A stretch of 64,000 nucleotides of DNA from a virus: the IMG/VR virus record IMGVR_UViG_3300020204_000005. One strand, given 5' to 3'. The notes below the pieces were generated by a model. That model searched no databases and was not told where the DNA came from. It worked only from the letters and a program-made list of their open reading frames with translations. Below, piece after piece: positions 13,157-56,504 of this stretch (within the stretch, counting starts at the first letter, position 1; every line of letters begins with the position of its first letter). Position numbers and translations under genes: made by a program.

Positions 13157-13840
13157 TTATCTACTACTTTTTTTACCTGCGTTCCAGTTGGCTACAACAA
13201 ATATAATTGAGAATATTGAAATCATAAAAGTGAGAACCGATAAAGGACCTCCATAGTTACCAACGGCACCGTCAATTAAAAAGTGCATTCTAGTTAAAAA
13301 TTCACTACTTGCCCAACCAGTATTATACCCCATTGCCCCAAAACCAATAATACTAGCCGCAACACCTGAAGGAATTCCGATAAGACCCATAAATCTGGCT
13401 AACCATCTTTTACCTGTATCAGCCCAAAAACCTTCAGCCATTTCACCACTTGGTTCTTGGTTAGCCATTTGACCTAATTTTTCAGCCTCTCTGTCGGAGA
13501 TTTCTTCTGTACCTAACTCGATAGTTGACGCAATTTTACCAAAATTAGAAACACCTGCTTTATCTTTTAAAATGTCTAAACCTTCTTGAGCTTCTTCATC
13601 ATCAAACTCATCTCTAAGTTTTGAAGTTACTCTTGCCGCGATACTTTTAGCTTTATCAATTGCGGACATGATTTTTTCTTTGAAACCAAACATTTCATTT
13701 AATTCTGATTCATTTAATCTACTATATTGTCTTCTTGAAGACCTATTACCATATCTCATTTGTTCTCTTTGATTTTCAGAAATAACTCGTTTAACAATTC
13801 TCATTAAATCTGATTCTGTTAATCTTATAACTTTTTTCAT
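13157..13840 (-). CDS. RLTESDL-leader family protein with two C-terminal TM helices
   Basis: MKKVIRLTESDLMRIVKRVISE; ATATTTAT on the minus strand at 13873-13880. Confidence 0.75.
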   Translation of the reverse strand: MKKVIRLTESDLMRIVKRVISENQREQMRYGNRSSRRQYSRLNESELNEMFGFKEKIMSAIDKAKSIAARVTSKLRDEFDDEEAQEGLDILKDKAGVSNFGKIASTIELGTEEISDREAEKLGQMANQEPSGEMAEGFWADTGKRWLARFMGLIGIPSGVAASIIGFGAMGYNTGWASSEFLTRMHFLIDGAVGNYGGPLSVLTFMISIFSIIFVVANWNAGKKSSR

Positions 13841-13881
13841 TACGTTTTTGATTTTTCTTTTTTTATTTTATTATAAATATT

Positions 13882-14244
13882 TTAAATTTCGTAAAATATT
13901 TTATATTTACCCGATTTAGTCATTTTTTTGGTTATTTTACCTGTATAGTCAGTATCAGATGCTTTATCCATAATTCGTTGCCTAATCACATCCCAATTGT
14001 TATAGTCAACAAATTCTTCAGGATTTTCTTCCATCTCATCTTCTATTTTTAATATATTATCGATAAAATATTCTCGTGGTGGAGTGTCTTTACCTGTGGT
14101 AATTTTTTTAATACCCCTACCAGCATCTCTAAGTTTGTCACCTAACCATCCTTCCTCTACTTCAGGTTCGGATTGAGATTCATTAACAAGTTTACGGATT
14201 AACTCCGTTAACTCACTTTCAGTAAGTCTTACTTTCTTTTTCAT
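13882..14244 (-). CDS. RLTESDL-leader family protein
   Basis: MKKKVRLTESELTELIRKLVNE (start moved to 14244); motif at 14251-14258. Confidence 0.75.
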   Translation of the reverse strand: MKKKVRLTESELTELIRKLVNESQSEPEVEEGWLGDKLRDAGRGIKKITTGKDTPPREYFIDNILKIEDEMEENPEEFVDYNNWDVIRQRIMDKASDTDYTGKITKKMTKSGKYKIFYEI

Positions 14245-14370
14245 ATATGTATAAATATTCAAAAATTACATAATGGGTATTGTAATAATAAAATATTTTT
14301 CATTGTTAATGTTGTGGGAATGGAAAAAAAGTTGTATCTTTGTCAAACAAACAATTTAAAACTATACACC

Positions 14371-14817
14371 ATGACATCTACAATCATCAACGTAACAACA
14401 GGAACAATGGCAGGAGACGTATTCTACGGAAACTTCAATACCGTTGTAAAAGGTAAAAAAATTTCTGTAATGGTTTCTAACCATTTGAAGGATTCCAATA
14501 AAGAATATGAGTTCCGTATTGCTGGTAAATGTAGAGCTGGTTTTATTAATATCCATGACACTAAAGGAACTGCGGAAGGTGTTATCCGTGGATACAAAAA
14601 AAACACATTAGTTAACATCCAAGTGAAAAACGAATACGGGAATTGGGTGAACGTTTACACTCTCAAAGGTGGTAAATGGAACTCAATCGACAAAGGGTTT
14701 TTGGATGTGTTGACTGTTGGAACTATGAGAGAATCTTTCCCTGACATGTGTGACATGGAACTTTGGGGTAGAATGGGAGCAAAAACTTGGGCGGACAAGG
14801 CGTTTGCACAAAATTAA
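14371..14817 (+). CDS. Hypothetical early protein
   Basis: Start moved to 14371, behind TATCTTTG at 14335-14342. Confidence 0.7.
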   Translation: MTSTIINVTTGTMAGDVFYGNFNTVVKGKKISVMVSNHLKDSNKEYEFRIAGKCRAGFINIHDTKGTAEGVIRGYKKNTLVNIQVKNEYGNWVNVYTLKGGKWNSIDKGFLDVLTVGTMRESFPDMCDMELWGRMGAKTWADKAFAQN

Positions 14818-14822
14818 AAATA

Positions 14823-14957
14823 TAGGTTGATTGGGGAAGGGTGATGCTAATGACACGAGAGTGTATATCGGTCAGTATCATCGGAGTTGGAAGATATACA
14901 CCAAAGTAATGCCAATCGTAAAATCAGATGTCCACTCAACCATCTTCTGATTTCCTA
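14823..14957 (+). ncRNA. Candidate structured (possibly pseudoknotted) RNA upstream of the tRNA cluster
   Basis: Pairings GTGTATATC/GATATACAC, GATTGG/CCAATC, AAATCAGA/TCTGATTT, GGTTGA/TCAACC; no ORF. Confidence 0.45.
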
Positions 14958-14961
14958 ACTT

Positions 14962-15081: not shown

Positions 15082-15154
15082 TGGTACGTAGCTCAATGGT
15101 GAGAGCACGACGCTTATATCGTCACGGTTATGGGTTCGAATCCCATCGTACCAA
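15082..15154 (+). tRNA. tRNA-Ile(UAU)
   Basis: Acceptor TGGTACG/CGTACCA; anticodon loop ctTATat; T arm ATGGG-ttcgaat-CCCAT. Confidence 0.85.
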
Positions 15155-15162
15155 CAATATTT

Positions 15163-15245
15163 GCCCGAGTGGAGGAATTGGTAGTCTCACTTGTCTTAGG
15201 AACAAGTGCTCTCAGAGCGTGTGGGTTAGAATCCCACCTTGGGTA
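15163..15245 (+). tRNA. tRNA-Leu(UAG)
   Basis: Acceptor GCCCGAG/CTTGGGT; CTTGT-ctTAGga-ACAAG; long variable arm; atypical T loop TTAGAAT. Confidence 0.8.
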
Positions 15246-15249
15246 CAAT

Positions 15250-15343
15250 AAACACATAAACTTTGGTTCCCATACAGCGGTGAGGTGGGCTAAGTTATAT
15301 ACAATTTCTCGGAGCTGGAAGTAGAAAGCCAAAGAGTGTGTTT
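15250..15343 (+). ncRNA. Candidate ~95-nt rod-shaped RNA between tRNAs
   Basis: Ends pair AAACACA/TGTGTTT and CTTTGG/CCAAAG; internal CAGC/GCTG. Confidence 0.35.
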
Positions 15344-15353
15344 AAAATAATAT

Positions 15354-17506: not shown

Positions 17507-17706
17507 AAAAGAAGTTTAAGACTATAACAATTAATATTGAGTTGTCTAGCACTGATAATTTAGAAGAAATAACTTCTAAAATGATACAAAATTTATCAGA
17601 TTGTGCGGTGAAAACTGTAAAATCAGAAAAAAAATGGTTTAGTAAAAAAGAACCAATAAAAATTAATTCAATCAGTGTTAGACAGTTCCCTTTAAATATT
17701 AATTAG
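17503..17706 (+). CDS. Small hypothetical protein
   Basis: ORF track; start overlaps the upstream stop (ATGA). Confidence 0.6.
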   Translation: MKKKFKTITINIELSSTDNLEEITSKMIQNLSDCAVKTVKSEKKWFSKKEPIKINSISVRQFPLNIN

Positions 17707-18298
17707 TTTTTGGTGGTAAAGGAGGGTCAAGTAAAAATTTCTCATTTAACCAATTCCTAAGTTCATTCTCAACAAAGTAATCAGGAACTACCTCATCATC
17801 AGGTGTTTGACTTGCAATTTCTGATATGTATTTAGCAAATTTAACTTTGTATTTTTCATTCATTAGAGTCATTAATCCATCAGAAATAAAAAATATTTTA
17901 GATAGAGGGTCCTCAACACCAAGTTCTCCTTCAACAACATCGAAAGATTTCATTATTGCTTTACCCCACCAAGTCTTGTAGGTTTCGGTATCCTCTAATG
18001 CAGGTCTAATTATTTTGTTAATTGCTCTTGTTATAGAAGCCGCGGCTCCTACAAGTAACAATTGTGGAATGAACCAAGGTAATAATCTTAAAGTTGCTTT
18101 ATAACCACCTTCACCTAGATGAGTGAAAATTCGTTTTCTTGTTGCCGAATCAACAATAGCTTTTAATTGACCAAAAGTTATTCTACCTTGAGCTTTACAA
18201 AATTTTTCAGAATCACATATGTTCTTAATTGCTTCACCTGAAGGATTTATATCCTCAAACAAAGTAATAAATTGAGATTCTGTAATTAAAACTTTCAT
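17699..18298 (-). CDS. Leader-family late protein (MKVLITESQF)
   Basis: Leader variant; ATATTTAT on the minus strand at 18303-18310. Confidence 0.7.
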   Translation of the reverse strand: MKVLITESQFITLFEDINPSGEAIKNICDSEKFCKAQGRITFGQLKAIVDSATRKRIFTHLGEGGYKATLRLLPWFIPQLLLVGAAASITRAINKIIRPALEDTETYKTWWGKAIMKSFDVVEGELGVEDPLSKIFFISDGLMTLMNEKYKVKFAKYISEIASQTPDDEVVPDYFVENELRNWLNEKFLLDPPLPPKTN

Positions 18299-19844: not shown

Positions 19845-19845
19845 T

Positions 19846-22694: not shown

Positions 22695-23903
22695 ATGATA
22701 ATTTATATTTTAGAAGGACCACAATTAGTAGATACTTCAAAGTACACAGGTATTAATTTTAAAGATAGAGTAGTTGGTAGTAGTACACCATCTAAAGACA
22801 AAATTAATCCATCTTTATTAGCTGATGTTGACAAAGCTGCAATAATCGCGGGCACCAAAGCAAGTGTTACAACTGCGGTTACAGGGCACAGACCTGGGTC
22901 AAGACACAATCCTGGAGGTTTGGCGGTTGATTTGGCGATGTTTGATGGTAAGGGTTATGGTAGTAAAGAGGATGCTAAAAAGAAAGGTATATATGATAAA
23001 ATAGAAAAATTTGTCAAAGCCTTAGAAAGTATGGGTTATAAGGTAAATTCAGAAAGGGGGAATGACAAGGCTGTTTTATGGTTTGGTTTTCCTAATCACC
23101 ATCATCATGTTCATGTCTCAAGACTATCGGATGATGGAACCTCAACTTCATCTTCATCCTCATCAGAAGATTCTGATAACAATTCCGATGATAGTAGTGA
23201 AACTACAAAAACAACAACCTCACCACCTCCAACAGACAGTAAACCAAAGGGTTTGGATTTCAACACCCTTGGGTTGATTAGTGCTTTAGGTAGATTATCC
23301 GAAAACAAAAAAAATAAAAACATGGGTAGATTATTAAATGAAATAGAAAAAATTAATAGGATTAATAAAGTAGTTATTTCCGAAGGTGCTTTACAAGTTT
23401 CTTATCCTAAGATTGTTTTTACACCGTCTGAATCAAATTTCCAAAATACAAATAAAAATCTTTTAACTGATTTAAATTCAATTGGGTCTGAAAAAAATAT
23501 TACGGTAAATATAACTGGCAGTACTCCCGATTCTGTATATGTAATTTTAAATGATGTTATAAAAAGTAAATTAACTGAAAAAGGATACGGAGGCGGTAAA
23601 ACTCAAAACCCTAATAAATATTATATGGATTATAATGGGTCAATTTACGTGTTTAATAACACAGTTACTTCACAAACTACGGATTCGGCAACAACCACAA
23701 CAACAACTAAATCATCAACGAGCTCAACAACTAATACAACAACTTTAAAAATAGATACTAGTAGTGCTCAAACGGCTGCCGATTCATTAATTGATTCTGT
23801 ATTAAGTGGTTTTGTGGCACCATTCGCAACTTCTGAAAGTGTTGGTAATAAAAAAGAAAAACTTCTAAATGAGATTAATCGTATTAAAAAAAATATGATA
23901 TAA
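22695..23903 (+). CDS. M15-like (LAS-fold) peptidoglycan peptidase domain protein with S/T-rich linkers
   Basis: GSRHNPGGLAVD ... HHHVHVS zinc-ligand pattern; LLNEIEKI and LLNEINRI motifs. Confidence 0.6.
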   Translation: MIIYILEGPQLVDTSKYTGINFKDRVVGSSTPSKDKINPSLLADVDKAAIIAGTKASVTTAVTGHRPGSRHNPGGLAVDLAMFDGKGYGSKEDAKKKGIYDKIEKFVKALESMGYKVNSERGNDKAVLWFGFPNHHHHVHVSRLSDDGTSTSSSSSSEDSDNNSDDSSETTKTTTSPPPTDSKPKGLDFNTLGLISALGRLSENKKNKNMGRLLNEIEKINRINKVVISEGALQVSYPKIVFTPSESNFQNTNKNLLTDLNSIGSEKNITVNITGSTPDSVYVILNDVIKSKLTEKGYGGGKTQNPNKYYMDYNGSIYVFNNTVTSQTTDSATTTTTTKSSTSSTTNTTTLKIDTSSAQTAADSLIDSVLSGFVAPFATSESVGNKKEKLLNEINRIKKNMI

Positions 23904-42892: not shown

Positions 42893-44701
42893 ATGGAAAA
42901 TAATAACAATAATCTAACGGTTTGGCAAAGGTTGTCCCATGCACTCGGACCCAATGCCTTATTGAATCAAGATTACCCAACGTACAAATTTGATAAAAAA
43001 GATTTATTAAAAACTACTTCAAAACAAGAATACGATAGAGAGTTATTACAAGCTCAACAAACTATGTATTTGTCGGGTCAATGGACCAAGATTGAAAGTA
43101 ACTTATATACTCAGGCGGTCTATTACGAACCAACAAGGTTAGCATCATTTTATGATTATGAATCTATGGAATACACTCCTGAGATTTCAGCCGCGTTAGA
43201 TATATACGGTGAAGAATCAACAACTGTTGACCAAAATGGTTATATGTTACAAATTTATTCGGAATCTAAACGTATTAAAGGAATATTAGCCGATTTATTT
43301 AACAATGTGTTAGATATTAATACTAATTTACCAATGTGGACAAGAAACACATGTAAATATGGTGATAATTTTGTTTACTTAAAATTAGATTCAGAAAAAG
43401 GTGTGGTTGGTTGTATGCAATTACCAAATATCGAAATTGAAAGACTAGAGAGAGGTATGCCTGCACAAGCAACAAGACAGAATATTGAGGAGCCTGCAGA
43501 GAATAAAGGTCTTAGATTTAAATGGAAAATTAAAGACATGGAATTTAATGCTTGGGAGATAGCACATTTTAGATTGTTAGGTGACGATAGAAAACTTCCA
43601 TACGGAACATCTATGTTAGAAAAGGCAAGACGTATTTGGAAACAATTATTATTATCTGAAGACGCTATGTTAATTTATAGAACATCAAGAGCGCCTGAAA
43701 GAAGAGTATTTAAAGTTTTTGTCGGTAATATGGATGACAAAGACGTTGAGGCATACGTACAAAGAGTTGCCAATAAATTTAAAAGAAATCAAATAGTAGA
43801 TGACAAAACAGGTAATGTTGATTTAAGATTTAATCAGATGGCCGTAGACCAAGATTATTTTATTCCTGTTCGTGACCCTGCACAAGCATCACCTATTGAC
43901 ACTTTACCTGGGGCTCAAAATTTAGCTGAAATTGCTGATATTGAATATATTCAGAAAAAATTATTAACCGCATTACGAGTACCTAAAGCGTTTTTAGGAT
44001 TTGAAGAACCTGTTGGTGAAGGTAAAAATTTATCGTTACAAGATATTCGTTTTGCAAGAACTATTAATAGAATACAAAAATGTATGATTGCAGAATTAAA
44101 TAAAATTGCGATTATACATTTATTTCTGTTAGGTTTTGAAGATGAGTTAGGTAATTTTACATTAGGATTAACTAACCCATCAACACAAGCTGATTTATTA
44201 AAAGTTGACGTTTGGAAAGAAAAAATATTATTATATAAAGACGCAGTAACCGCAATAGAAGGTATTGCTCCTGTATCAGTTTCATGGGCCAAAAAACATA
44301 TTTTAGGTTTCTCAGATGAAGAAATAAAACTTGATTTACAACAACAAAGAATTGAAAAGGCCGTTGGTGCTGAATTAACTAATACTGCAACAATTATAAG
44401 TCACACAGGTTTATTTGATAATGTTGATAAACTTTATGGTTCCAAGTCAGGTGATACTGCGGGAGGAGGGGCCGCCCCACCACCTCCAGGCGGGGGGGAT
44501 ATGGGAGCACCTACACCACCTCCTGGACCTGAACCTGGCGGTGATGCGGGAGTAACCCCTGAATCATTAAATAGAGATAATTTAAAAATATTACTAGAAT
44601 CTGATTCTTTAACTGACGATGGTTCCTACATAGATTTATCCAAAGCGAAAAATTCTTTGGGTGAAATTGAGGATAGATTGAATAAACTTTTAGGTGATTG
44701 A
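42893..44701 (+). CDS. Portal protein (T4 gp20-like)
   Basis: YGTSMLEKARRIWKQL...EDAMLIYRTSRAPERRVF, DYFIPVR, LRVPKAFL. Confidence 0.95.
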   Translation: MENNNNNLTVWQRLSHALGPNALLNQDYPTYKFDKKDLLKTTSKQEYDRELLQAQQTMYLSGQWTKIESNLYTQAVYYEPTRLASFYDYESMEYTPEISAALDIYGEESTTVDQNGYMLQIYSESKRIKGILADLFNNVLDINTNLPMWTRNTCKYGDNFVYLKLDSEKGVVGCMQLPNIEIERLERGMPAQATRQNIEEPAENKGLRFKWKIKDMEFNAWEIAHFRLLGDDRKLPYGTSMLEKARRIWKQLLLSEDAMLIYRTSRAPERRVFKVFVGNMDDKDVEAYVQRVANKFKRNQIVDDKTGNVDLRFNQMAVDQDYFIPVRDPAQASPIDTLPGAQNLAEIADIEYIQKKLLTALRVPKAFLGFEEPVGEGKNLSLQDIRFARTINRIQKCMIAELNKIAIIHLFLLGFEDELGNFTLGLTNPSTQADLLKVDVWKEKILLYKDAVTAIEGIAPVSVSWAKKHILGFSDEEIKLDLQQQRIEKAVGAELTNTATIISHTGLFDNVDKLYGSKSGDTAGGGAAPPPPGGGDMGAPTPPPGPEPGGDAGVTPESLNRDNLKILLESDSLTDDGSYIDLSKAKNSLGEIEDRLNKLLGD

Positions 44702-46206: not shown

Positions 46207-46932
46207 ATGAGTTTACAAATAATACAACCAGGCCAAGTAGGTAAAGGAATTCTTATCGAATATGACGCAGGATTTATTAATCCTAAAGATAAGTATAATT
46301 CTGAACTAATCAGAGAATCCAAAAATTTCATGGACCATACAAAACCTTTTGAATTTTATGCAGTATTACAAAAATATAATACACCAAATAGGAACGGTAG
46401 AATTTACCCTGAAAGGATTTTAAAAAGAGAAGCTGATAATTACAAAAAAATGATTGAAAAGGGGACATCATTATCTGAATTGAATCACCCTGAATCTTCT
46501 CTTATAGACTTAGATAGAGTATCTCATATTATAACTGATGTATGGTGGGATGGACCAATATTAATGGGTAAATTAAAATTACTTACAAGCCCAGGATTTC
46601 ATGAAAGAGGTGTGTGTTCCACAAAAGGTGATTTAGCGGCAAACTATTTAAGACAAGGGGTAACTCTTGGTATTTCTTCTCGTGGGGTAGGTTCATTAAA
46701 AAAGGTTGGGGAACAAAATGAAGTGCAGGATGATTTTGAATTGATTTGTTTTGATTTAGTTTCGTCACCATCAACACCTGGGGCTTATTTATTTTTAAAT
46801 CCTGAAGACAAAAATAATTTCGAGGAAAATCTTGATGAGGAGAAAAAAATGTCAATTGAAAGAAATGTTGGACAGTCAGGAAATAAATCACTTGACTTAA
46901 TGAGAAAGTTATCCGATTATTTAGGATACTAA
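46207..46932 (+). CDS. Prohead core protease (T4 gp21-like)
   Basis: NRNGRIYP, ELNHP, GISSRGVGS, FDLVSSPSTPGAY. Confidence 0.95.
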   Translation: MSLQIIQPGQVGKGILIEYDAGFINPKDKYNSELIRESKNFMDHTKPFEFYAVLQKYNTPNRNGRIYPERILKREADNYKKMIEKGTSLSELNHPESSLIDLDRVSHIITDVWWDGPILMGKLKLLTSPGFHERGVCSTKGDLAANYLRQGVTLGISSRGVGSLKKVGEQNEVQDDFELICFDLVSSPSTPGAYLFLNPEDKNNFEENLDEEKKMSIERNVGQSGNKSLDLMRKLSDYLGY

Positions 46933-47324: not shown

Positions 47325-49058
47325 ATGGCAAAAGAAAAATCATTAGTAGAAGAAGCAATCATCCAAATGAAGAATTTGGAAGAGGCGGTTGCCGAAAATG
47401 CAAAAGGAATACTTGCATCAACGATGAAGCAAGAAATCAAAGATTTAGTAAAAGAATCTCTATCTGAACAAGATGAAGATGAGGTTGAAACAGATGTTGA
47501 CATTGAAGATGACGCAGACATTGATATGGATGCCGAAGATGATATGGATACAGATAACGACTTAGGTGATGAAGACATTGACGTTGATGTAGATGCGGAT
47601 TCTGAAGATGTAATTGACTTAACAGGTCAACCTAGTTCTGAAGTTCTTAAAGTGTTTCAATTACTTGGACCTGAAGACCAAATAGTGGTTACTAAAGACC
47701 CTAATGGGAACATAAACTTAAAAGATAACGAAACAAACAAAGAATATATGATAGTAGGTGAAAACATTGAAGAAGAAGATTATCTGAACGAATACTCTGA
47801 ATTAGGTGATATGAATGAAGAAGATTGGTCGACAGATGGAATGAATAATGAAGATATCGATGCTCTTGTTGAAAGAGTTTTTGGTGTTGAAGATGAATAT
47901 TCTGAAGATTCTGACTATGATGACACTTCTGACTTTGTTGGACTTGGTGGTATGGACGAAGGTGTTTACGCTGCCGTTCGCGAAGATTATGACGATGAAG
48001 CAAATATGGGTGCCTTAGATGAAGATGATTTCGATAGTATTGATATGAACAAAATGTACGGAGACGAAGGTGCTGACCAATTAGGTGAGGATAACGATGA
48101 TATCGTTTACGAAATTGAATTTGATGGAGAAGAACCTGAACTTTCTGAACGGGGCCACTCTAGATATCGTGATTTAAAATACCATTTTGGTAGACGTGGT
48201 GAAGATGAAGATGAATATGACACTACGGATGACTATAAAGATGGAGATTATGATGAACTTGAAGAATGGTCTTGGGGTGGTGCTTTAGCAGGAGGAATAT
48301 CAGGAGGATTAGGTATTGATGAAGATATGGAAGAACCTGTAATGGAAAGTAAAAAAATGTCACGTAAAATACCTGGAGTCGGAATGGGTAAACCTAAATT
48401 TTCTTATGATGGCAAACCTAACCAAAACTTACGTGTGAAAAAACAAGGTTACGGTGGTAAAGGAATTGGATTTGGAAACGCTAAAAAAGCATCTAAGTTT
48501 GACGCTGACAAAGATAATGGTCAAATGGATGGAGAATTTAGAGTTAAACCTAAAAAGTTTGAAGCAAAAGAAGCGGCACGTACATATGGTAATGGTTCTA
48601 AATCAGGAAGAGGGCTTAGAAAAGGAATCACTCCTAATAGAAACCTTACGTTTGAAAACGTTGACGCGAGAGAAATACAAATCCTTAGAGAAAAAAATGA
48701 AGAATACAGAAAAGCATTAAATATCTTCAGAAATAAATTGAATGAGGTTGCGGTGTTTAACTCAAACTTGGCTTACGCTACACGTTTGTTTACAGAACAC
48801 TCAACGTCTAAACAAGAAAAAATAAATATATTAAGAAGATTTGATTCTGTAGAAACTATTAAAGAGTCTAAGAATTTATATCACCAAGTTAAGGATGAAT
48901 TATCTGTGTCATCAAACCAATCACCAATCAACGAATCATTTGAAAGAGTAATTGAAAAAACTCCTTCTACAGGTTCAGCGGTTAACTTGATTGAGTCTAA
49001 GACATATGAAAATCCACAATTCTTAAGAATGAAAGACTTAATGTCAAAATTAAGATAA
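47325..49058 (+). CDS. Putative prohead scaffold/core protein (gp22-like)
   Basis: Very acidic, with a coiled-coil C-terminus; sits between protease and MCP; many L/I-x-E sites. Confidence 0.7.
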   Translation: MAKEKSLVEEAIIQMKNLEEAVAENAKGILASTMKQEIKDLVKESLSEQDEDEVETDVDIEDDADIDMDAEDDMDTDNDLGDEDIDVDVDADSEDVIDLTGQPSSEVLKVFQLLGPEDQIVVTKDPNGNINLKDNETNKEYMIVGENIEEEDYLNEYSELGDMNEEDWSTDGMNNEDIDALVERVFGVEDEYSEDSDYDDTSDFVGLGGMDEGVYAAVREDYDDEANMGALDEDDFDSIDMNKMYGDEGADQLGEDNDDIVYEIEFDGEEPELSERGHSRYRDLKYHFGRRGEDEDEYDTTDDYKDGDYDELEEWSWGGALAGGISGGLGIDEDMEEPVMESKKMSRKIPGVGMGKPKFSYDGKPNQNLRVKKQGYGGKGIGFGNAKKASKFDADKDNGQMDGEFRVKPKKFEAKEAARTYGNGSKSGRGLRKGITPNRNLTFENVDAREIQILREKNEEYRKALNIFRNKLNEVAVFNSNLAYATRLFTEHSTSKQEKINILRRFDSVETIKESKNLYHQVKDELSVSSNQSPINESFERVIEKTPSTGSAVNLIESKTYENPQFLRMKDLMSKLR

Positions 49059-49101: not shown

Positions 49102-50982
49102 ATGGGAGCATTATTAGAATCAGGTCTTGTTGGTAACATCGGTCTTAAGCACCTTAAAGTTATCAAAGAAGATACAATTAACAAATGGGATAGATTAGGA
49201 TTCCTAGAAGGTCTAAGAGGACATTTAAAAGAGAACGTAGCTCAGTTATATGAGAACCAAGCGTCTCACCTAATTAATGAGGCAACTTCTGACGGTTCTT
49301 CAGGTTCATTTGAAACTGTTGTTTTCCCAATCGTTAGACGTGTATTCTCTAAATTATTAGCTAACGACATCGTGTCTGTACAAGCTATGAACTTACCTAT
49401 CGGTAAATTATTCTACTTCGTACCTAAAATCCAAGGGTATAAAGATGGTAGTTATGATGCGGCGACTTATTCAGGTGGTTCAGGAGAACATTACGGTCCT
49501 GTTGGAGCAGTAAACGGTTTAACTGCTGACCAAGCTAAAGCTGGTCAAGGTTATACTACAGGTACTGCGTCTAATTACAATCCTACTTACAAGAAAAATC
49601 TTTACGATTTATTCTATGAAGGTAATGAAGGTCAATTAGACCCTCCAGGATTATTTGATTACTCTAAAGGTCAGTGGTCGGCGATTACTGCAACTACAGA
49701 CGTACAAGTTTGGAATGGTTCTAACTTAGTTGACGCTGATGGTCAATACAATGGCGAAAACGTAAGAAAAGTAATCGTTAAAATGTGTGGTTTTGCTAAC
49801 ACAGGTAATGGTAAATTAATCGGACCTGATGGAAATGAGTATGATACTGAATCATTCTTAGCAGACTTAAGAGTATTCGCTAACGAAAATTTCACAGATG
49901 ATGATTCACCATGTAATGTTGTTTTTGCTGACGACGCTAAAACTATACCAAATTCTTTATTGTTCCGTGTAGTTACACAACAATATGGACAAGGAATTGT
50001 TTCTAATTTATCAACAAGAGCACAAGCATCTTGGCCTACAGAAGGAAATGGTGGATACTTTAATGATATTTGTACTCCTGATGGATGTATCTTTTTAGAA
50101 GTTGACCTTTCTTGTCCTGTATGTGCTAACTGTAACGCAACATCTTTAGATGGTTACACAGGTACTACAATCGATACATTAGGTCTTAATGACTTCACTG
50201 CAGTATTTAGACGTTACAAAGAACTTGAATTCGAAGACAAAATCGGTGAGGTTTCTTTCGACCTTGAGTCTGTAACAGTTTCTGTAACTGAAAGAAAATT
50301 AAGAGCACAATGGTCACCTGAATTGGCTCAAGACGTAGCGGCATTCCACAACATCGATGCTGAAGCTGAATTAACGGCTTTATTATCTGAACAAGTTGCG
50401 GCAGAAATCGACCGTGAAATCTTAAGAGACCTTAGAAAAGGTGCGGCTTGGAACTTACGTTGGGATTACAACGGATGGAGAAGAATCAACGCTACTACTG
50501 CGTATACACAAAAAGACTGGAACCAAACATTGATTACTGCAATCAACCAATTGTCAGCACAAATCCACAAATCTACTTTAAGAGGTGGAGCTAACTGGAT
50601 TGTTGTATCTTCTGAGGTTTCTGCGATTTTTGATGATTTAGAATACTTCCACGTATCTAACGCGTCTCCTGAGCAAGACCAATACAACATGGGTATTGAA
50701 AGAGTTGGTACATTATCAGGTCGTTACCAAGTTTACCGTGACCCTTACTTCCCACCAAACCAAATCTTAATTGGTCACAAGGGAACGTCATTGTTAGACA
50801 CAGGTTACATCTACGCACCGTATGTACCTCTACAATTAACACCTACAATGTATAACCCATTCAACTTTACACCTATCAAAGGTATTATGACAAGATACGC
50901 TAAGAAAATGGTTAACAACCGTTTCTATGGTAGAGTAACTGTTGATGGTATCCGTACATTCGACTTAAGAGAATTGAGATAA
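49102..50982 (+). CDS. Major capsid protein (T4 gp23-like) with large insertion
   Basis: IVSVQAMNLPIGKLFY, RKLRAQWSPELAQD, EIDREI, YAPYVPL, GIMTRY; LINE|A maturation-like site at aa 60. Confidence 0.95.
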   Translation: MGALLESGLVGNIGLKHLKVIKEDTINKWDRLGFLEGLRGHLKENVAQLYENQASHLINEATSDGSSGSFETVVFPIVRRVFSKLLANDIVSVQAMNLPIGKLFYFVPKIQGYKDGSYDAATYSGGSGEHYGPVGAVNGLTADQAKAGQGYTTGTASNYNPTYKKNLYDLFYEGNEGQLDPPGLFDYSKGQWSAITATTDVQVWNGSNLVDADGQYNGENVRKVIVKMCGFANTGNGKLIGPDGNEYDTESFLADLRVFANENFTDDDSPCNVVFADDAKTIPNSLLFRVVTQQYGQGIVSNLSTRAQASWPTEGNGGYFNDICTPDGCIFLEVDLSCPVCANCNATSLDGYTGTTIDTLGLNDFTAVFRRYKELEFEDKIGEVSFDLESVTVSVTERKLRAQWSPELAQDVAAFHNIDAEAELTALLSEQVAAEIDREILRDLRKGAAWNLRWDYNGWRRINATTAYTQKDWNQTLITAINQLSAQIHKSTLRGGANWIVVSSEVSAIFDDLEYFHVSNASPEQDQYNMGIERVGTLSGRYQVYRDPYFPPNQILIGHKGTSLLDTGYIYAPYVPLQLTPTMYNPFNFTPIKGIMTRYAKKMVNNRFYGRVTVDGIRTFDLRELR

Positions 50983-51531: not shown

Positions 51532-52551
51532 ATGAAAAAATTGTATTTTCTAAATGAAGAAGAAAAAGAAAGAATTTTAAAACTTCATAAGAGTGCCACA
51601 AGAAAACAATACATAACCGAAGACATGGATAATAGAATGTGTGAGGGATGTGGTAAATCAGATATGTATGAATATTCTGAATTAGATGAAGCTGATGCGG
51701 GAGCGGTAGCGACAGGACTTGCTTTAGGTGGTGTTGTGGGAGCCGCTTTGGCTTATGTTAATTCATCTGCAGGGTCTTATAATGGTGTTAAAAAAATATT
51801 TGACGCTTGTAATGCTTCAGGTATGGGTAAATCAACAATGAACGGAGGAACTCTCGATAGTATCTCAAAACAAGTGAGAACCGCAATTGATGGATGGGGT
51901 ACCGATGAAGATGCTATTAAATCGGCATTAGGACAAATCGCAACAATTCCTGATTTATGTGCGGTTAATAAAAGATATGCTGAAAATTACCCTGGTAGTA
52001 CATTATTAGGTGATTTAGATGGTGATATCGATAGTGATAGTGAATGGAATAAATATGTATACCAACCATTATTAGCAGCTAAAAGAAAATCAGAAGAACT
52101 TGGAGCAGGAAAATCTTCAGGAGGAGGTATGTTCGGAGCAATTTCAAGAAGTGCTAAAGCCGCGATGATTGCGTCTATGGTTAAATGGCAACCTTCGTGG
52201 GCTAAATATAAATGTATCCTTAACAATAAGGACGCTAAACCAGGTAAAATGTCTAATGGTAGTTATGCAATCACAATCGGTGGTTCTGTTTATTATGACA
52301 ACGGAAGATATAAAGCTCCTGATGGTACTATGAAATCGTATACATGTCCTGGCTCAACAGTAACCCCAACAACCTCAAGTAAAACTTCTACATCAAGTAA
52401 AACCTCAACAACAGGTAAAACCGCAACTAAAACACCAAGTCCTGTGGCTCAATCCAATGTAAAACAAGTCCAAAAACTTGTTGGAGTTGCGGAAACAGGT
52501 GTGTTTGATGATGTGACTGCTAAGGCAGTTAGAACTAAATTAGGAATTTAA
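51532..52551 (+). CDS. Leader-family virion protein with annexin-like repeat and C-terminal PG-binding-like helix pair
   Basis: MKKLYFLNEEEKERILKLH; RTAIDGWGTDEDAIKSAL...LLGDLDGD; VKQVQKLVGVAETGVFDDVT. Confidence 0.7.
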   Translation: MKKLYFLNEEEKERILKLHKSATRKQYITEDMDNRMCEGCGKSDMYEYSELDEADAGAVATGLALGGVVGAALAYVNSSAGSYNGVKKIFDACNASGMGKSTMNGGTLDSISKQVRTAIDGWGTDEDAIKSALGQIATIPDLCAVNKRYAENYPGSTLLGDLDGDIDSDSEWNKYVYQPLLAAKRKSEELGAGKSSGGGMFGAISRSAKAAMIASMVKWQPSWAKYKCILNNKDAKPGKMSNGSYAITIGGSVYYDNGRYKAPDGTMKSYTCPGSTVTPTTSSKTSTSSKTSTTGKTATKTPSPVAQSNVKQVQKLVGVAETGVFDDVTAKAVRTKLGI

Positions 52552-52572: not shown

Positions 52573-53028
52573 ATGAAAAGATTAATTATAACTGAAGAAG
52601 AAAAAAGAAGTATTCTTTTAAAACACGGTAGTAAATCATTTTTAAATGAGGCTGCTAAAGACGATATTATGGCAATACAAAAATCTTTAGGTTTAACTGC
52701 GGATGGTGTGGCAGGACCTAAAACAATCTCATCTATTATCGCAAAATTAGGTGGAGGTTCATCAGCGGCGGCGACCAATAAAACCGCAACACCTACGACA
52801 CCTGCAACACCAACAACCCCTACTACACCTACTACACCAACAACCCCTACTACACCTACTACACCAACAACCCCTACTACACCTACTACACCTGCCGCGG
52901 CTACCACTACAACATTCTCAGCGGCACCTGTTGCGGGGGCAACAACTTTAGAACAAGCTTGTGGTACAAGAAAAACTAATAAAGACTATAGACTTTGTAA
53001 AAAAGTATTTAACAAAACTACCAAATAA
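52573..53028 (+). CDS. Leader-family protein with PG-binding-like domain and (TTP)n linker
   Basis: MKRLIITEEEKRSIL; IQKSLGLTADGVAGPKT. Confidence 0.75.
   Translation: MKRLIITEEEKRSILLKHGSKSFLNEAAKDDIMAIQKSLGLTADGVAGPKTISSIIAKLGGGSSAAATNKTATPTTPATPTTPTTPTTPTTPTTPTTPTTPTTPTTPAAATTTTFSAAPVAGATTLEQACGTRKTNKDYRLCKKVFNKTTK
52807..52887 (+). repeat. 27-nt coding tandem repeat x3 (Thr/Pro-rich)
   Basis: ACACCAACAACCCCTACTACACCTACT repeated three times. Confidence 0.9.
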
Positions 53029-53030: not shown

Positions 53031-53534
53031 ATGAAAAATACTAATATACTTAAAGAAATAAATGAAATGAAATATCTCTTTGACTATAGGAGAGGTAAAG
53101 TTATTTCTGAACAAGAAAGTTCTGATGTGACAGATTTTGTGGTTGGTGGTAAACAAGAAGTTAGTGTTGGACCTAAAACTGTTGCTCCGACCGTATCAAG
53201 CACTCCTTCAACAACTACTAAAACAACTAGAAAAGCCACAGGTTTAGAAGTTCAAAAATTACTCAATACAAAATTTAGTGCTGGTTTAAAAGAGGATGGT
53301 AGAGTTGGTCCTTTAACTCTTGGTGCAATTATGAACGCTCTCGAGGGTTCATCAGGTTCATCTGCAGGAACCTCAACAGGAGTATCCACAACACCTACTA
53401 CTACAGTAGCGGGTGGTTCAGTAACTTCAACAACTACGGTTGCTGGCTCAACAACACAAACTTCAACCGACGCAGCATCAGGAGGTGGTGGTATAGACCC
53501 TAATGTGGTGGGACAAGAATTTAATTTTGGTTAA
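53031..53534 (+). CDS. Leader-family protein with PG-binding-like domain and S/T-rich linkers
   Basis: ILKEINEMKYLFDY...VISE; VQKLLNTKFSAGLKEDGRVGPLT. Confidence 0.75.
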   Translation: MKNTNILKEINEMKYLFDYRRGKVISEQESSDVTDFVVGGKQEVSVGPKTVAPTVSSTPSTTTKTTRKATGLEVQKLLNTKFSAGLKEDGRVGPLTLGAIMNALEGSSGSSAGTSTGVSTTPTTTVAGGSVTSTTTVAGSTTQTSTDAASGGGGIDPNVVGQEFNFG

Positions 53535-54240: not shown

Positions 54241-54334
54241 AATTTTATTTTTTATATTCAATTAAGTATAGGATAAAATATTGATAAAAACAGGTCTTGT
54301 TAAAAGTTTTTACATTATTAAAATATTTATAGAT

Positions 54335-54958
54335 ATGGATGAATGGATTGACGTTAATAAATTACCAATAAATGAAGCAACGATGACTTCATTAACTGCA
54401 GGTGTTTATAACGGTCCACAAGAATTAGGTATAAAAAAATGGAAAAAATCCGAAATGGGTCCATTTTACGTAAGTTTAAAAAATGAACTTAATAAACTTA
54501 GTAAACAAAAAACTCTAAAGAATAATAAAGCTCGTGTAGTAGGAATGTGGGAAAAAGGTACTGATGGTACTTACGATGTTCCGACACATGATGTACACAC
54601 TATTAATGAAGATTTAGCGGTTTGGTTTGGTACTAAAAAGAAACCAAAAGGTTCTTCACAACCAAAAGGTCCTTGGGTTAACATATGTCGTAAAGATAAG
54701 GACGGTAAACATCCTCCATGTGGAAGGCCTAATACTGATAAAGGTGCGTACCCTAAGTGTAGAGCGGCGGGTGTTGCGGGTAAAATGTCTGATTCACAAA
54801 AGAAAGCGGCGTGTCAACAAAAAAGAGCGGCTGAGAAAAAAGATACACAAAGTGGTAAAGGTCAAAAACCTGTGATGACATCATACAAACCAAAAAAGAA
54901 AAAGACTCTTGAGGAGTCTTTATCTAAAATTATTAATAGAGTTTTAAATAGTCTTTAA
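54335..54958 (+). CDS. Basic late protein with Cys-containing domain
   Basis: INEDLAVWF...WVNIC...HPPCGR...YPKC; ATATTTAT at 54323-54330. Confidence 0.7.
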   Translation: MDEWIDVNKLPINEATMTSLTAGVYNGPQELGIKKWKKSEMGPFYVSLKNELNKLSKQKTLKNNKARVVGMWEKGTDGTYDVPTHDVHTINEDLAVWFGTKKKPKGSSQPKGPWVNICRKDKDGKHPPCGRPNTDKGAYPKCRAAGVAGKMSDSQKKAACQQKRAAEKKDTQSGKGQKPVMTSYKPKKKKTLEESLSKIINRVLNSL

Positions 54959-55426
54959 CAAGTTAATAAAATTAGTCCACGTATTTAAATCGTTCTCATT
55001 TCTACCTATATTGGCGGAATAACAACATAATACAACATTTTCTTTAGTGTAACCTTTATTTCTATCTAACCTATCTAAAGAAGGTTGTTGGGGATGTTTC
55101 TTATAGTTTGATGGTATTAAAGGGACTTTAAACCAATAACACAAACCGTTTTGTTTTTCAAACATCTCATTAATATCACTAACCGTTAAAGTATTTTCTA
55201 AGTTACGATGTTTTGAATCATTTATTAAGGTATTTTGCCAAAGTCTTACTCTTCTTTCTTTTTGTTTAATACTCTCCTTGATTCTATGTTTAGGTTCTAA
55301 TCTTTTTTTTCGTTTATATTCTCTTGTATCAATTAAAATACATTCTTTACATTTACTACCTCTTTGTGTTTTATAAAAATCATTTTCTGACTTTATTTTA
55401 CCACATTTACTACATTGTTTATCCAT
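54944..55426 (-). CDS. HNH/His-Me-like endonuclease with N-terminal zinc ribbon (putative homing endonuclease)
   Basis: CSKC...CKEC; GLCYW...PSLDRLDRNKGYTKENVVLCCYSAN. Confidence 0.75.
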   Translation of the reverse strand: MDKQCSKCGKIKSENDFYKTQRGSKCKECILIDTREYKRKKRLEPKHRIKESIKQKERRVRLWQNTLINDSKHRNLENTLTVSDINEMFEKQNGLCYWFKVPLIPSNYKKHPQQPSLDRLDRNKGYTKENVVLCCYSANIGRNENDLNTWTNFINLLKTI

Positions 55427-55491
55427 ACTAATAAATGTATGGGTAAACATTAAAATACAAAAAAAAAGAGACGTTTAGTCTCTTTTATTTT

Positions 55492-55956
55492 TTAACAATA
55501 AGGTGGTGAACATCTCTTTTTACCATCGAGACCTTTTATCTTTCCTTTACAAACTTGTACTCCATGTCCATTACTATATGCACTGGGAAATACGTCGTAC
55601 CTCGCCTTGGCGGCCGCTTTACCACGAGCACATAATTTAGTACCCGTTTTCTTTCTACCTTCCATCATAACCATATCTTTATCATCTATATTCATAGATA
55701 ATTCCATACCATCTTTTTTTGACTGATTCATTATAAAATCAAAAACTTGGTCTAAAGTATTTTTAGATTCTGCAATATGGTCTTGTGCCCAATCGTGACC
55801 ATTCTCTAAAATAGATTCTACCATGTTACGGTCTAAATCTAATAGTAAATCACATTGTCTTCTCATTTGTTCTAAATTAGAAAAGAACATATATCTACTA
55901 CTTTCGTACGCCTCTTCCCTTAAAACTTTTTTTATAAGTGTATTTAAATTTTTCAT
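55492..55956 (-). CDS. Leader-family protein with basic Cys-containing C-terminal domain
   Basis: MKNLNTLIKKVLREE; KLCARGKAAAKARYDVFPSAYSNGHGVQVCKG. Confidence 0.7.
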   Translation of the reverse strand: MKNLNTLIKKVLREEAYESSRYMFFSNLEQMRRQCDLLLDLDRNMVESILENGHDWAQDHIAESKNTLDQVFDFIMNQSKKDGMELSMNIDDKDMVMMEGRKKTGTKLCARGKAAAKARYDVFPSAYSNGHGVQVCKGKIKGLDGKKRCSPPYC

Positions 55957-56264
55957 ATATTAAGATATTTCACATATGCTTTATCTGCATATTTTATGAA
56001 CTTTTCACCATATATTTTGGCTAATCTATCCATAATTAATTGGGGATTTTTTCTCATGTATCTTAAAATGTCAGCAGGGATTTGCTCATCATATTTACCA
56101 AATAAAGATTCAATCTCCTTTTCTCTTGGTTGCATTCTAACATTAGGTTCGACACTAAATTTAGAATTACCAATCTCGTCATCAAATTCTTCGTCAGATT
56201 CATTAATAACTCTTTTAATGATTCGATTTAAATCTGATTCCGTTAATCTTACTGTCTTTTTCAT
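55953..56264 (-). CDS. RLTESDL-leader family protein
   Basis: MKKTVRLTESDLNRIIKRVINE. Confidence 0.75.
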   Translation of the reverse strand: MKKTVRLTESDLNRIIKRVINESDEEFDDEIGNSKFSVEPNVRMQPREKEIESLFGKYDEQIPADILRYMRKNPQLIMDRLAKIYGEKFIKYADKAYVKYLNI

Positions 56265-56270
56265 TGTTTA

Positions 56271-56504
56271 TTAATTTGAACCTGAATGGTGTCTACGACC
56301 TTCCATCTTTTCATAATAACCCTCTTTAGAACCTTTCCAATCCCAAGGTAAGTCATTTTTAATATTATAATCTAATTGTTTGTCATCAACACCTTTAAGT
56401 TTTCTCATCAATTTTTTTATTAATGTTTCTTTTTCTTCTTCTTTGATGATTCTCTTAACAATATTATGTAAATCGTTTTCAGTTAATCTTATTATCTTTT
56501 TCAT
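56271..56504 (-). CDS. RLTESDL-leader family protein
   Basis: MKKIIRLTENDLHNIVKRIIKEE. Confidence 0.75.
   Translation of the reverse strand: MKKIIRLTENDLHNIVKRIIKEEEKETLIKKLMRKLKGVDDKQLDYNIKNDLPWDWKGSKEGYYEKMEGRRHHSGSN

What the first reader, a model, noticed from the sequence alone, without database searches (positions are those of the whole stretch)
13157..56504. Genome-wide family of proteins sharing a putative capsid-targeting leader and prohead-protease sites, fused to diverse cargo
Seen: near-identical N-termini in unrelated ORFs: MKKVIRLTESDLMRIVKRVISE (13157), MKKKVRLTESELTELIRKLVNE (13882), MKKTVRLTESDLNRIIKRVINE (55953), MKKIIRLTENDLHNIVKRIIKEE (56271). Variants occur: MKVLITESQF (17699), MKRLIITEEEKRSIL (52573), MKKLYFLNEEEKERIL (51532), ILKEINEMKYL (53031), LIFEEIKRAQLL (2258), LLNEINRIK (22695 C-terminus). 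Each leader is followed by an I/L-x-E|(A/G/S) site like the MCP site LINE|A (aa 60), then an unrelated cargo domain. Established: T4 internal proteins carry an N-terminal capsid-targeting sequence removed by gp21 after Glu. Inference: a modular leader + protease site + cargo system that loads many effectors into the head for co-injection.
Basis: partly seen in the sequence, partly recalled or inferred. Interest (0 to 1): 0.85.

Follow-up and report, generated by a model that had tools for sequence, protein, structure and literature searches.

The report
Shared N-terminal address tags on phage proteins
An uncultured giant T4-like phage puts a few near-identical short tags, each ending in the motif its head-maturation protease should cut, on the front of many unrelated late proteins. 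This is most likely a greatly expanded version of phage T4's capsid-targeting signal, but packaging and cutting have not been observed.

Summary
The core observation is real. Four minus-strand ORFs (227, 120, 103 and 77 aa) start with a 22-residue motif, MKKxIRLTESDLxRIVKRVIxE (profile E 1e-8 to 1e-16; next genome hit E 0.13 to 1; 0 hits in shuffles). One matches a third family (F, ..IKKVLREE) weakly; a clear F member (55492-55956) was not listed. Three are unsupported or marginal.

An exhaustive profile search finds leader A in 7,374 protein clusters, nearly always at residues 1-25. Cargos are unrelated: 204 fall into 140 BLAST clusters, essentially without Pfam domains. Leader A is absent from 50,697 GenBank phage records and near-absent from bacteria, but common in uncultured roughly 300-kb phages with a T4-type head module. 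One complete relative has 45 leader genes among 395 ORFs.

Conservation stops exactly at Glu22. Five leader families all end in hydrophobic-[I/L/V]-x-Glu, the grammar of the MCP's predicted maturation site (LINE|A) and of the T4 CTS (MKTYQEFIAE). Leader genes lie behind a late-promoter-like motif, ATATTTAT.

Best reading (about 0.55): propeptide tags that load cargo into proheads and are removed by the S77 protease. No virion or cleavage data exist. Other first-stage notes of this scan report similar tags on this and another genome.

The parts
13157..13840 (-). Leader-A protein, 227 aa. The leader is codons 1-22 (13775-13840, ending VISE). A degenerate second copy, RLNESEL, lies at aa 42-48. 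The cargo has two hydrophobic, Gly-rich TM-like segments.
13882..14244 (-). Leader-A protein, 120 aa. The leader is 14179-14244 (ending LVNE) and the cargo is acidic.
55953..56264 (-). Leader-A protein, 103 aa. The leader is 56199-56264 (ending VINE), followed by a variable acidic linker and a conserved helical cargo.
56271..56504 (-). Leader-A protein, 77 aa. The leader is 56439-56504 (ending IIKE).
55492..55956 (-). Leader-F protein, 154 aa, starting MKNLNTLIKKVLREE.
   Evidence: (E 4.4e-6)
51532..52551 (+). Leader-B protein, 339 aa, starting MKKLYFLNEEEKERILKLH, then YITE|D at aa 27-31. It is the second ORF after the MCP gene (an 80-aa ORF, 51161-51403, lies between) and has ATATTTAT at 51507-51514.
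52573..53028 (+). Leader-B protein, 151 aa, starting MKRLIITEEEKRSILLKH, then FLNE|A at aa 23-27. It has a sub-threshold PG_binding_1 match and a Thr/Pro tract.
53031..53534 (+). Weak leader-F-like protein, 167 aa (..ILKEINEMKYL.., then VISE|Q at aa 24-28).
   Evidence: (E 0.024)
17699..18298 (-). Marginal variant (MKVLITESQF). It joins the A/B cluster only in the blastp-short clustering. ATATTTAT lies at 18303-18310.
2258..3763 (+). No leader profile finds it. It is a late-motif gene.
22695..23903 (+). No profile supports it.
46207..46932 (+). Prohead protease of the gp21 / Peptidase_S77 family; the proposed processing enzyme.
47325..49058 (+). Very acidic 577-aa protein in the gp22 (scaffold) position; a candidate docking partner for the leaders. 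It has no family match.
49102..50982 (+). gp23-like major capsid protein. The predicted maturation site LINE60|A61 lies at 49270-49284, 4 residues before the stretch that aligns with mature T4 gp23*.
42893..44701 (+). gp20-like portal protein, marking the start of the T4-order head module.
13873..13880 (-). Late-promoter-like motif ATATTTAT, 40 nt upstream of the 13840 start. A second copy at 14251-14258 serves the 14244 start.
58172..58179 (-). ATATTTAT ahead of 56696-58156, the gene that heads the co-oriented run containing the three leader genes 56504 to 55492. A further copy lies at 56903-56910.

Best explanation
The shared N-termini are propeptide address tags of the T4 capsid-targeting-sequence type. 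Each leader is a short strand plus an amphipathic helix. It is proposed to dock the newly made protein onto the scaffolding core while the prohead assembles. The gp21-like S77 protease would then cut after the Glu that ends the leader (..V-I-x-E22 | Q/N/S in family A) and perhaps also after LTE9. The small leader peptide would leave the head and the cargo would stay with the DNA, to be delivered at the next infection.

Shown here: the tags, their N-terminal position, their modularity, the terminal motif, the protease gene and the late-type promoter motif. Inferred: docking, cleavage, retention in the head and injection.
For: 1. The window has a T4-order head module: portal, S77 protease, acidic scaffold-like protein and gp23-like MCP.
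2. Leader A is on 7,374 clusters at 50% identity, almost always at residues 1-25, on proteins of 29-449 aa. In 1.22 Mb of related viral loci, 254 of 270 copies start with Met at model position 1.
3. Information content is 1.2-5.1 bits at positions 1-22 (mostly 2-5), with Glu22 at 96% and Ile20 at 78%. It falls below 0.8 bits from position 24. The iterated profile is 22 positions long and ends at that Glu.
4. Five leader families (A, B, F, E, G) all end in hydrophobic-[I/L/V]-x-E, often followed by Gln: A 190/208, F 33/37, E 19/21, G 10/10, B 24/37, against 17% of other ORFs.
5. The same four-residue grammar, L-I-N-E|A, stands just before the part of the MCP that aligns with mature T4 gp23*.
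6. The T4 CTS is MKTYQEFIAE (PMC8442874), and S77 proteases cut after Glu in a short x-X-E motif (PMC5694885).
7. Cargos are unrelated: 204 fall into 140 clusters, and 94 representatives give only six single weak Pfam hits. Within one cargo family the cargo is more conserved than the tag, and the linker is acidic and of variable length.
8. AlphaFold2 gives a helix at 9-25, a disordered stretch at 23-41, then a helical cargo.
9. ATATTTAT is strongly placed upstream of genes in sense orientation (31 of 55 copies). It precedes the terminase, protease and scaffold genes and both leader genes at 13.8-14.2 kb. In the complete relative G002, the nearest upstream promoter-like motif is this one for 32/45 leader genes against 118/350 other genes (Fisher p 2e-6).
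10. All 10 long contigs of the clade that were tested, and 4 of 5 complete rumen contigs with a sister tag, encode an S77 protease.
Against: - There is no virion proteome, N-terminal mapping or experiment, and no cultured phage has the tags.
- The S77 co-occurrence is lineage-bound: MCP N-termini are 79-88% identical across the 10 contigs.
- [I/L]-x-E is common in this AT-rich proteome (about 2.8 strict sites per 1000 aa), and the Glu could simply end an amphipathic helix.
- Five Bacteroidales MAGs carry single chromosomal genes with the first 17-18 leader residues, next to housekeeping genes, and have no S77 protease.
- The motif also occurs internally in some proteins.
- 45 tagged proteins per genome would be an unusually large head cargo.
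- 10 of 45 leader genes in G002 follow a host-type promoter motif instead.
Confidence: 0.55

Rival explanations
1. The leaders are docking peptides for a conserved phage-encoded partner other than the prohead. Candidates are the ClpB-like AAA+ protein at 31688-33730, a chaperone, or a tail or baseplate assembly factor. The terminal Glu would then just be part of the binding helix.
For: Nearly every position of the 22-mer is constrained on all helix faces, which suggests a specific protein groove. The tags are phage-restricted. A phage AAA+ 'ATP-dependent protease' homologue is present. Two leader-A genes and one leader-F gene follow a minus-strand run of large, unannotated genes headed by the late-type motif.
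Against: This does not explain why five different leader families all end in the S77-type h-[I/L/V]-x-E motif, with conservation stopping there. It also does not explain why the MCP's predicted maturation site uses the same grammar.
Confidence: 0.17
2. The leaders are amphipathic helices that send the proteins to the host membrane or to a host factor during infection (host takeover, superinfection exclusion), with no link to the capsid.
For: The helix has a hydrophobic stripe (L12, I15, V16, V19, I20) flanked by Arg/Lys. About 10% of cargos have TM-like segments, including the 227-aa protein. Single copies exist in Bacteroidales chromosomes without an S77 protease. 10 of 45 leader genes in G002 lie behind a host-type promoter motif.
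Against: The sequence is far more conserved than membrane-binding helices require (T8 90%, E9 97%, D11 82%, E22 96%). The TM fraction equals the background (21/204 against 196/1658). Only 11 weak hits occur in 185,579 species genomes, so it is not a general host signal. Most leader genes are behind the late-type motif.
Confidence: 0.1
3. There is no targeting function. This is one fast-evolving paralogous family, or several, in which the N-terminal helix is the functional core (for example an oligomerisation or nucleic-acid-binding element resembling half a ribbon-helix-helix) and the rest diverges freely or is shuffled by recombination.
For: Tandem arrays of up to 11 copies in 15 kb suggest duplication. 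The strand-plus-helix pattern resembles the first half of RHH proteins (by eye only). Some proteins carry two copies.
Against: Within one orthologous cargo family all the invariant residues lie in the cargo, and the tag is degenerate or partly deleted in some members, so the tag is not the functional core. Cargos include unrelated folds and lengths of 29-610 aa. No Pfam RHH or other domain matches. Conservation ends at residue 22, too short for an RHH fold.
Confidence: 0.1

Closest known systems
T4 capsid targeting sequence (CTS) of internal proteins IPI, IPII, IPIII and Alt, removed by the gp21 prohead protease (Mullaney and Black 1996, as cited in PMC8442874, PMC3012670 and PMC5694885)
   Same: A short N-terminal peptide starting with Met-Lys and ending in hydrophobic-Ile-x-Glu, shared by otherwise unrelated, fast-evolving proteins. 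The phage has a gp20/gp21/gp22/gp23-type head module. The tag is separable from the cargo. Family F (MKELIRHIIKE|E, 11 aa) matches the T4 CTS (MKTYQEFIAE|A, 10 aa) in length and grammar.
   Different: There is no detectable sequence homology to the T4 CTS. Leader A is twice as long (22 aa). There are at least five leader families rather than one. There are dozens of tagged genes per genome (45 of 395 in one complete relative) against about five in T4. P1' is mostly Gln/Asn/Ser rather than Ala. Some proteins carry internal copies. No function has been demonstrated.
Propeptides of head and ejection proteins of giant phages phiKZ, 201phi2-1 and SPN3US, cut by S77-type proteases at (S/A/G)-x-E or A-x-E (PMC5694885, PMC7411985, PMC10052503)
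   Same: Jumbo phages with many (about 50) head proteins. Several have N-terminal propeptides cut after Glu. The paralogues gp53 and gp54 share an identical 15-residue N-terminus. The ejection protein gp47 has a TM helix after its propeptide, as the 227-aa protein does here.
   Different: Those propeptides are mostly over 100 residues and are not a common tag spread over unrelated proteins. P3 is a small residue (A/S/G) there and Ile/Leu/Val here. The phages here are closer to T4 in head-gene order and have a gp22-position acidic protein.
Cargo-loading peptides of encapsulins, and scaffold-fusion packaging in P22-type capsids
   Same: A short conserved peptide directs diverse cargo into an HK97-fold shell.
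   Different: The encapsulin peptides are usually C-terminal, are not cleaved and are not tied to a maturation protease or to DNA packaging. The resemblance is by analogy only.

Membership tests
T4-type capsid-targeting propeptide (CTS) system | A short conserved peptide at the extreme N-terminus of otherwise unrelated proteins | tested here: met
   254 of 270 copies start at Met1. 202 of 208 unique copies are N-terminal. Cargos form 140 clusters from 204 sequences.
T4-type capsid-targeting propeptide (CTS) system | The peptide ends in the prohead protease's recognition motif (x-X-Glu, with P3 Leu/Ile in T4) | tested here: met
   Glu22 96%, Ile/Val/Leu20 95%, with conservation ending at 22. 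Families B, F, E and G end likewise. This shows motif presence only.
T4-type capsid-targeting propeptide (CTS) system | The phage encodes a gp21 / Peptidase_S77 prohead protease and a scaffolding core next to a gp23-type MCP | tested here: met
   PF03420 E 1e-22, PF07068 E 8e-75, PF07230 E 1e-76. An acidic 577-aa protein sits in the gp22 position but has no family match.
T4-type capsid-targeting propeptide (CTS) system | Expression together with the head genes (late) | tested here: inconclusive
   The ATATTTAT motif is shared with the terminase, protease and scaffold genes and is enriched before leader genes. The motif's timing is inferred, not measured.
T4-type capsid-targeting propeptide (CTS) system | The leader is actually cleaved after Glu and the mature cargo is present in virions | not testable with these tools
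   No cultured phage carries the tags, and no proteome is available.
T4-type capsid-targeting propeptide (CTS) system | The leader is sufficient to carry a foreign protein into proheads | not testable with these tools
   This needs an experiment.
T4-type capsid-targeting propeptide (CTS) system | Sequence homology to the T4 CTS MKTYQEFIAE | not tested
   Compared by eye only. They share the Met-Lys start and the h-I-x-E end and nothing else. A 10-residue peptide is too short for a statistical test.
Ribbon-helix-helix DNA-binding domain | A strand, helix 1 and a conserved helix 2 forming a domain of about 45 residues | tested here: not met
   Conservation stops at residue 22, there are no Pfam hits, and residues 23-41 are predicted disordered.
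Sec / Tat / T9SS sorting signals | A hydrophobic core of at least 10 residues, a twin-Arg motif, or a C-terminal sorting domain | tested here: not met
   The leader is charged and amphipathic with no hydrophobic core. True signal peptides in the same loci form separate clusters.

The most novel reading that the evidence does not exclude
A large clade of uncultured roughly 300-kb T4-like phages, with a rumen sister group, uses a multi-family 'postal code' of at least five interchangeable N-terminal leaders, each closed by the head protease's cut site. It would load about a tenth of the phage's genes (dozens of different proteins per virion, thousands of cargo families across the clade, some as polyproteins) into the capsid for delivery with the DNA. 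This would be by far the largest injected-protein repertoire known for any virus of bacteria, and the tag would read out that repertoire directly from metagenomes.
Probability: 0.3. Interest if true: 0.85.

Novelty: new variant of a known kind. Interest (0 to 1): 0.66.

Why it matters
If the tags are capsid-targeting propeptides, a 22-residue profile would identify the packaged and injected proteome of a widespread group of uncultivated giant phages from sequence alone. That set is thousands of unannotated protein families and a natural place to look for anti-defence and host-takeover functions. It would also show that the T4 CTS principle, known from a handful of proteins in T-even phages, can be scaled to about 10% of a genome and diversified into several parallel leader types. 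It would supply ready-made packaging tags for engineering such phages. If the tags instead serve another partner, they still mark an undescribed and very abundant addressing system of phage proteins, with 7,374 clusters at 50% identity.

Tried and rejected
Context came instead from IMG/VR and GTDB loci.
- A full-text literature search for the motif (RLTESDL and similar) found nothing relevant.
- tblastn of leaders A, F and B against 50,697 GenBank phage records gave no true match. No cultured relative carries the tags, so no virion proteome could be consulted.
- Cargo function stayed unknown. Pfam on 94 leader proteins gave only six single weak hits, one on a chimeric contig. Foldseek of the AF2 model against the PDB gave nothing at E <= 0.001. 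The ESM Atlas returned only unnamed viral clusters.
- Conservation at the nucleic-acid level (promoter, recombination box, RNA element) was rejected, because the four leaders differ by synonymous codons and their upstream DNA is unrelated.
- RHH domain, Sec/Tat signals and RiPP-type leaders were considered and rejected on length, composition and cargo size.
- S77 co-occurrence was rejected as independent evidence, because the 10 long contigs are one clade.
- A strict regex for the 'EEIxRIxxLMG' subtype was too narrow to evaluate 2258 and the 22695 C-terminus.
- Sub-threshold PG-binding matches in 52573, 53031 and 2258 (E 0.001-0.09, below the cut-offs) are kept only as a lead.
- The sequencing-run tools were not used, because expression data would not address encapsidation.

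Full report
**What the window is.** The window is bases 21616-85615 of a 102,672-bp, 31% G+C viral contig. It carries a T4-type head module in T4 gene order:
- large terminase, 40917-42692
- gp20-like portal, 42893-44701 (PF07230, E 1e-76)
- two small ORFs in the gp67/gp68 position
- a gp21-like Peptidase_S77 prohead protease, 46207-46932 (PF03420, E 1e-22)
- a very acidic 577-aa protein in the gp22 position, 47325-49058
- a gp23-like MCP, 49102-50982 (PF07068, E 8e-75)

The closest cultured MCPs are only about 40% identical: Microcystis phage Mel-JY01 and Flavobacterium phage immuto. Related complete IMG/VR contigs are 282-322 kb, so this contig is about a third of a jumbo genome.

**The observation.**
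- Four minus-strand ORFs start with MKKxIRLTESDLxRIVKRVIxE: 13157-13840, 13882-14244, 55953-56264 and 56271-56504.
- A profile of the four finds exactly these four in the six-frame translation of the genome (E 3e-13 to 7e-16), and the next hit has E 0.13.
- After iteration on related loci the result is unchanged. Shuffled sequences give 0 hits against 279 real ones.
- The four leader DNAs differ by synonymous codons and their upstream regions are unrelated, so the peptide is what is conserved.

- 52573 and 51532 belong to a second N-terminal family, B (consensus KKFIITEEEKNRILGLHK; E 1e-6 and 6e-5).
- 53031 hits a third family, F, weakly (E 0.024).
- 17699 is marginal.
- 2258 and the C-terminus of 22695 are not supported.
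It completes a three-gene tandem array with the two leader-A genes at 55953-56504.

**How widespread leader A is.**
- An exhaustive profile search of 1.84 billion cluster representatives finds 7,374 proteins at E <= 1e-3. The motif is almost always at residues 1-25, on proteins of 29-449 aa, and some carry a second, internal copy.
- IMG/VR holds at least 419 confirmed matches. The 79 fetched loci (1.22 Mb) contain 270 copies, of which 254 begin with Met at model position 1, with a median of 4 open codons upstream. Up to 11 copies lie in 15 kb.
- Leader A is absent from 50,697 GenBank phage records. It is nearly absent from 185,579 species genomes, with 11 weak hits.
- Ten of ten long contigs carrying it encode an S77 protease. 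Their MCP N-termini are 79-88% identical to the window's, so this is one clade and the co-occurrence is not independent evidence.
- Complete genomes carry 7-17 leader-A genes.
- A sister tag, MKKxIRLTESDLHRIIKESVKxVLxE, has at least 211 matches in viral contigs (many IMG sample ids recur; I take several of them for rumen or gut samples from memory, untested). Four of five complete 317-413-kb contigs have an S77 protease. The fifth has only a fragmentary gp23-like match in a 93-aa open frame, and recoded stop codons are a possible but untested reason.

**Anatomy of the tag.**
- In 202 unique copies the information content is 1.2-5.1 bits at positions 1-22, mostly 2-5 (L7 97%, T8 90%, E9 97%, L12 95%, E22 96%, I/V/L20 95%).
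- Position 23 is weakly biased (Q/N/S/E/G), positions 24-27 are acidic, and there is no signal beyond that.
- The iterated HMM is 22 positions long and ends at that Glu.
- Within the orthologues of the 103-aa protein all invariant residues lie in the cargo. The leader varies and is partly deleted in some members, and the acidic linker varies in length, including a 28-residue insertion.
- AlphaFold2 with that alignment gives a helix at 9-25, a disordered stretch at 23-41 (pLDDT below 50) and a helical cargo at 46-101 (pLDDT up to 91).
- Cargos are unrelated. The 204 unique cargos form 140 BLAST clusters, and the window's four fall in four different clusters. Pfam finds essentially nothing in 94 representatives. 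About 10% have TM-like segments, the same as the background; this includes the 227-aa protein.

**More than one tag, one ending.**
- I clustered 1,658 ORFs by similarity restricted to the N-terminus. Besides the A/B supercluster this gave family F (MKELIRHIIKEE and MNLQExIRRILREE types; 47 ORFs), family E (..RFxNLMESTIGDVKPLIxEQ; 10) and family G (MNKSYSKIRHIQE..LExRLLxEQ; 10).
- All end in hydrophobic-[I/L/V]-x-Glu, commonly followed by Gln: A 190/208, F 33/37, E 19/21, G 10/10, B 24/37, against 17% of other ORFs in the same region of the protein.
- In family B the site lies at a variable distance, starting 0-6 residues after the motif. It is present in 23/41 against 10% of controls (p 8e-13).
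- The motif is about ten times denser in the first 20 residues of leader ORFs than elsewhere. P1' is Gln in 32% against 4% background. These counts are dominated by family A, so the real weight lies in the number of separate leader families, at most five (B may be kin of A), not in these figures.
- The MCP has L-I-N-E60|A61, conserved across the clade. It lies 4 residues before the stretch that aligns with residue 21 of mature T4 gp23*.
- From the literature: the T4 CTS is MKTYQEFIAE (PMC8442874). S77-family proteases of T4, phiKZ, 201phi2-1 and SPN3US all cut after Glu in a short motif whose P3 residue is lineage-specific. T4 CTS propeptides are 10-20 residues. SPN3US gp53 and gp54 share an identical N-terminus, and the ejection protein gp47 has a TM helix behind its propeptide (PMC5694885).

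**Expression context.**
- The octamer ATATTTAT occurs 55 times in the genome. 31 copies lie 8-75 nt upstream, in sense orientation, of a start codon (4.4% expected by position; only 12 for the reverse complement).
- It precedes the terminase, protease and scaffold-like genes, the ORFs on either side of the portal gene, a wall-lytic fusion protein and 56696-58156. It also precedes both leader-A genes at 13.8-14.2 kb, 51532, 17699, 2258 and 22695.
- The three leader genes at 56504 to 55492 have no motif of their own. They lie in the same orientation directly behind 56696-58156, which has one.
- A different motif, TAnnTTTG, precedes non-structural genes. From general knowledge it resembles the Bacteroidota housekeeping -7 element.
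- In the complete relative G002, 45 of 395 ORFs carry a leader (A 18, F 17, B 9, G 1). The nearest upstream promoter-like motif is ATATTTAT for 32/45 of them against 118/350 other genes (p 2e-6), and the host-type motif for 10/45.
- That ATATTTAT is a late promoter is inferred from the genes it precedes. It has not been measured.

**Interpretation.** The simplest account of all these facts is a CTS-like propeptide system. The leader docks cargo to the assembling core, the S77 protease cuts at the terminal Glu, the leader leaves and the cargo stays. I put this at about 0.55.

The main weaknesses are:
- There are no protein-level data at all.
- The S77 association is confounded by phylogeny.
- The [I/L]-x-E triplet is frequent in an AT-rich proteome.
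- Some proteins have internal copies of the motif.
- Five Bacteroidales MAGs carry single chromosomal genes with the first 17-18 leader residues. They sit next to Mur ligase, an M14 peptidase, a GT2 or an IS1595 transposase, and these genomes have no S77 protease. These may be captured phage genes, but they show that the peptide can persist without a prohead.

The rivals are docking to another phage partner, membrane or host-factor targeting, and a plain paralogous family. Each explains part of the data. None explains the common Glu-terminated ending of several leader families or its match to the MCP site.

**Comparison and novelty.** Functionally this looks like the T4 CTS, and less closely like the propeptides of phiKZ-type head proteins. 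It is not homologous in sequence to the T4 CTS. It differs in length, in the number of leader types and, above all, in scale (about 11% of ORFs in a complete relative). I class it as a new variant of a known kind.

Other first-stage notes of this scan describe similar tags on this genome (e1-5799946) and on another genome (e1-5802245). Two follow-ups on other T4-like phages report polyproteins joined by protease-type linkers (e1-5697623, e1-5697648). These agree with my reading but are not independent evidence.

Noticed in passing
window-wide; e.g. 40895-40902, 46185-46192, 47296-47303, 51507-51514 (+); 13873-13880, 58172-58179 (-): The octamer ATATTTAT is a strongly oriented, promoter-like motif. 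31 of 55 copies lie 8-75 nt upstream of starts, before the terminase, protease, scaffold-like and lysin genes. It is probably the late promoter of this clade; it reads as the reverse complement of T4's TATAAATA but acts in sense orientation.
   Followed up: partly
e.g. upstream of 11753, 16345, 20947 and 30848 (+) and 45631 (-): A second upstream motif, TAnnTTTG, precedes non-structural genes. It resembles the Bacteroidota housekeeping -7 promoter element, which hints at a Bacteroidota host. Another first-stage note had flagged TAACTTTG copies at 24263-24654.
   Followed up: partly
L084:5001-5330, L088:5001-5561, L090:5001-5384, L085:1032-1538, L089:5001-5378: Single chromosomal genes in five Bacteroidales MAGs begin with MKKxIRLTESDLHRIIKES. 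They lie among housekeeping or mobile genes (Mur ligase, M14 peptidase with a T9SS tail, GT2, WYL regulator, IS1595 transposase), and these genomes have no S77 protease. They may be captured phage genes.
   Followed up: partly
L117-L193 (IMG/VR contigs; habitat not checked); G021-G025: A sister leader type, MKKxIRLTESDLHRIIKESVKxVLxE, is abundant in 317-413-kb contigs with about 40% G+C. One 95%-complete contig (G025) shows only a 93-aa open gp23-like fragment, possibly because of stop-codon recoding.
   Followed up: partly
P0061, P0063, P0065, P0071 and P0082 (proteins): Some metagenomic proteins carry leader A twice, once at the N-terminus and once internally, sometimes without the Met-Lys-Lys. 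This suggests leader-cargo-leader-cargo polyproteins. The window's 227-aa protein has a degenerate second copy (RLNESEL, aa 42-48).
   Followed up: partly
51532-53534 (+) and 2258-3763 (+): The three leader-type genes that follow the MCP gene (an 80-aa ORF, 51161-51403, lies between), and the gene at 2258, contain Thr/Pro/Ser-rich tracts. Three of the four (52573, 53031, 2258) have sub-threshold PG-binding matches (E 0.001-0.09). 51532 also has a sub-threshold annexin-repeat match (E 0.002).
   Followed up: partly
11525-11599 and 15082-15510 (+): There are five tRNA genes: Arg-TCT, Ile-TAT, Leu-TAG, Phe-GAA and Thr-TGT. Four form a cluster right next to the leader-A pair at 13.1-14.3 kb.
   Followed up: no
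31688-33730 (-): A 680-aa ClpB/ClpA-like double AAA+ protein (phrog_4871, 'ATP-dependent protease', E 3e-240) is encoded by the phage.
   Followed up: no
44724-45440 (+): The 238-aa ORF in the gp67/gp68 position between portal and protease starts ..LLKSKIEKVLVE|S, which is reminiscent of family F leaders. No profile confirms it.
   Followed up: no
L006 (minus strand, about 4-14 kb): A related jumbo contig has an array of 70-86-aa ORFs that share an N-terminus (MKEVISPRIRLGKSV) followed by SV-rich repeats. This is a different N-terminal family of unknown meaning, and it may be an artefact of reading the antisense frame.
   Followed up: no
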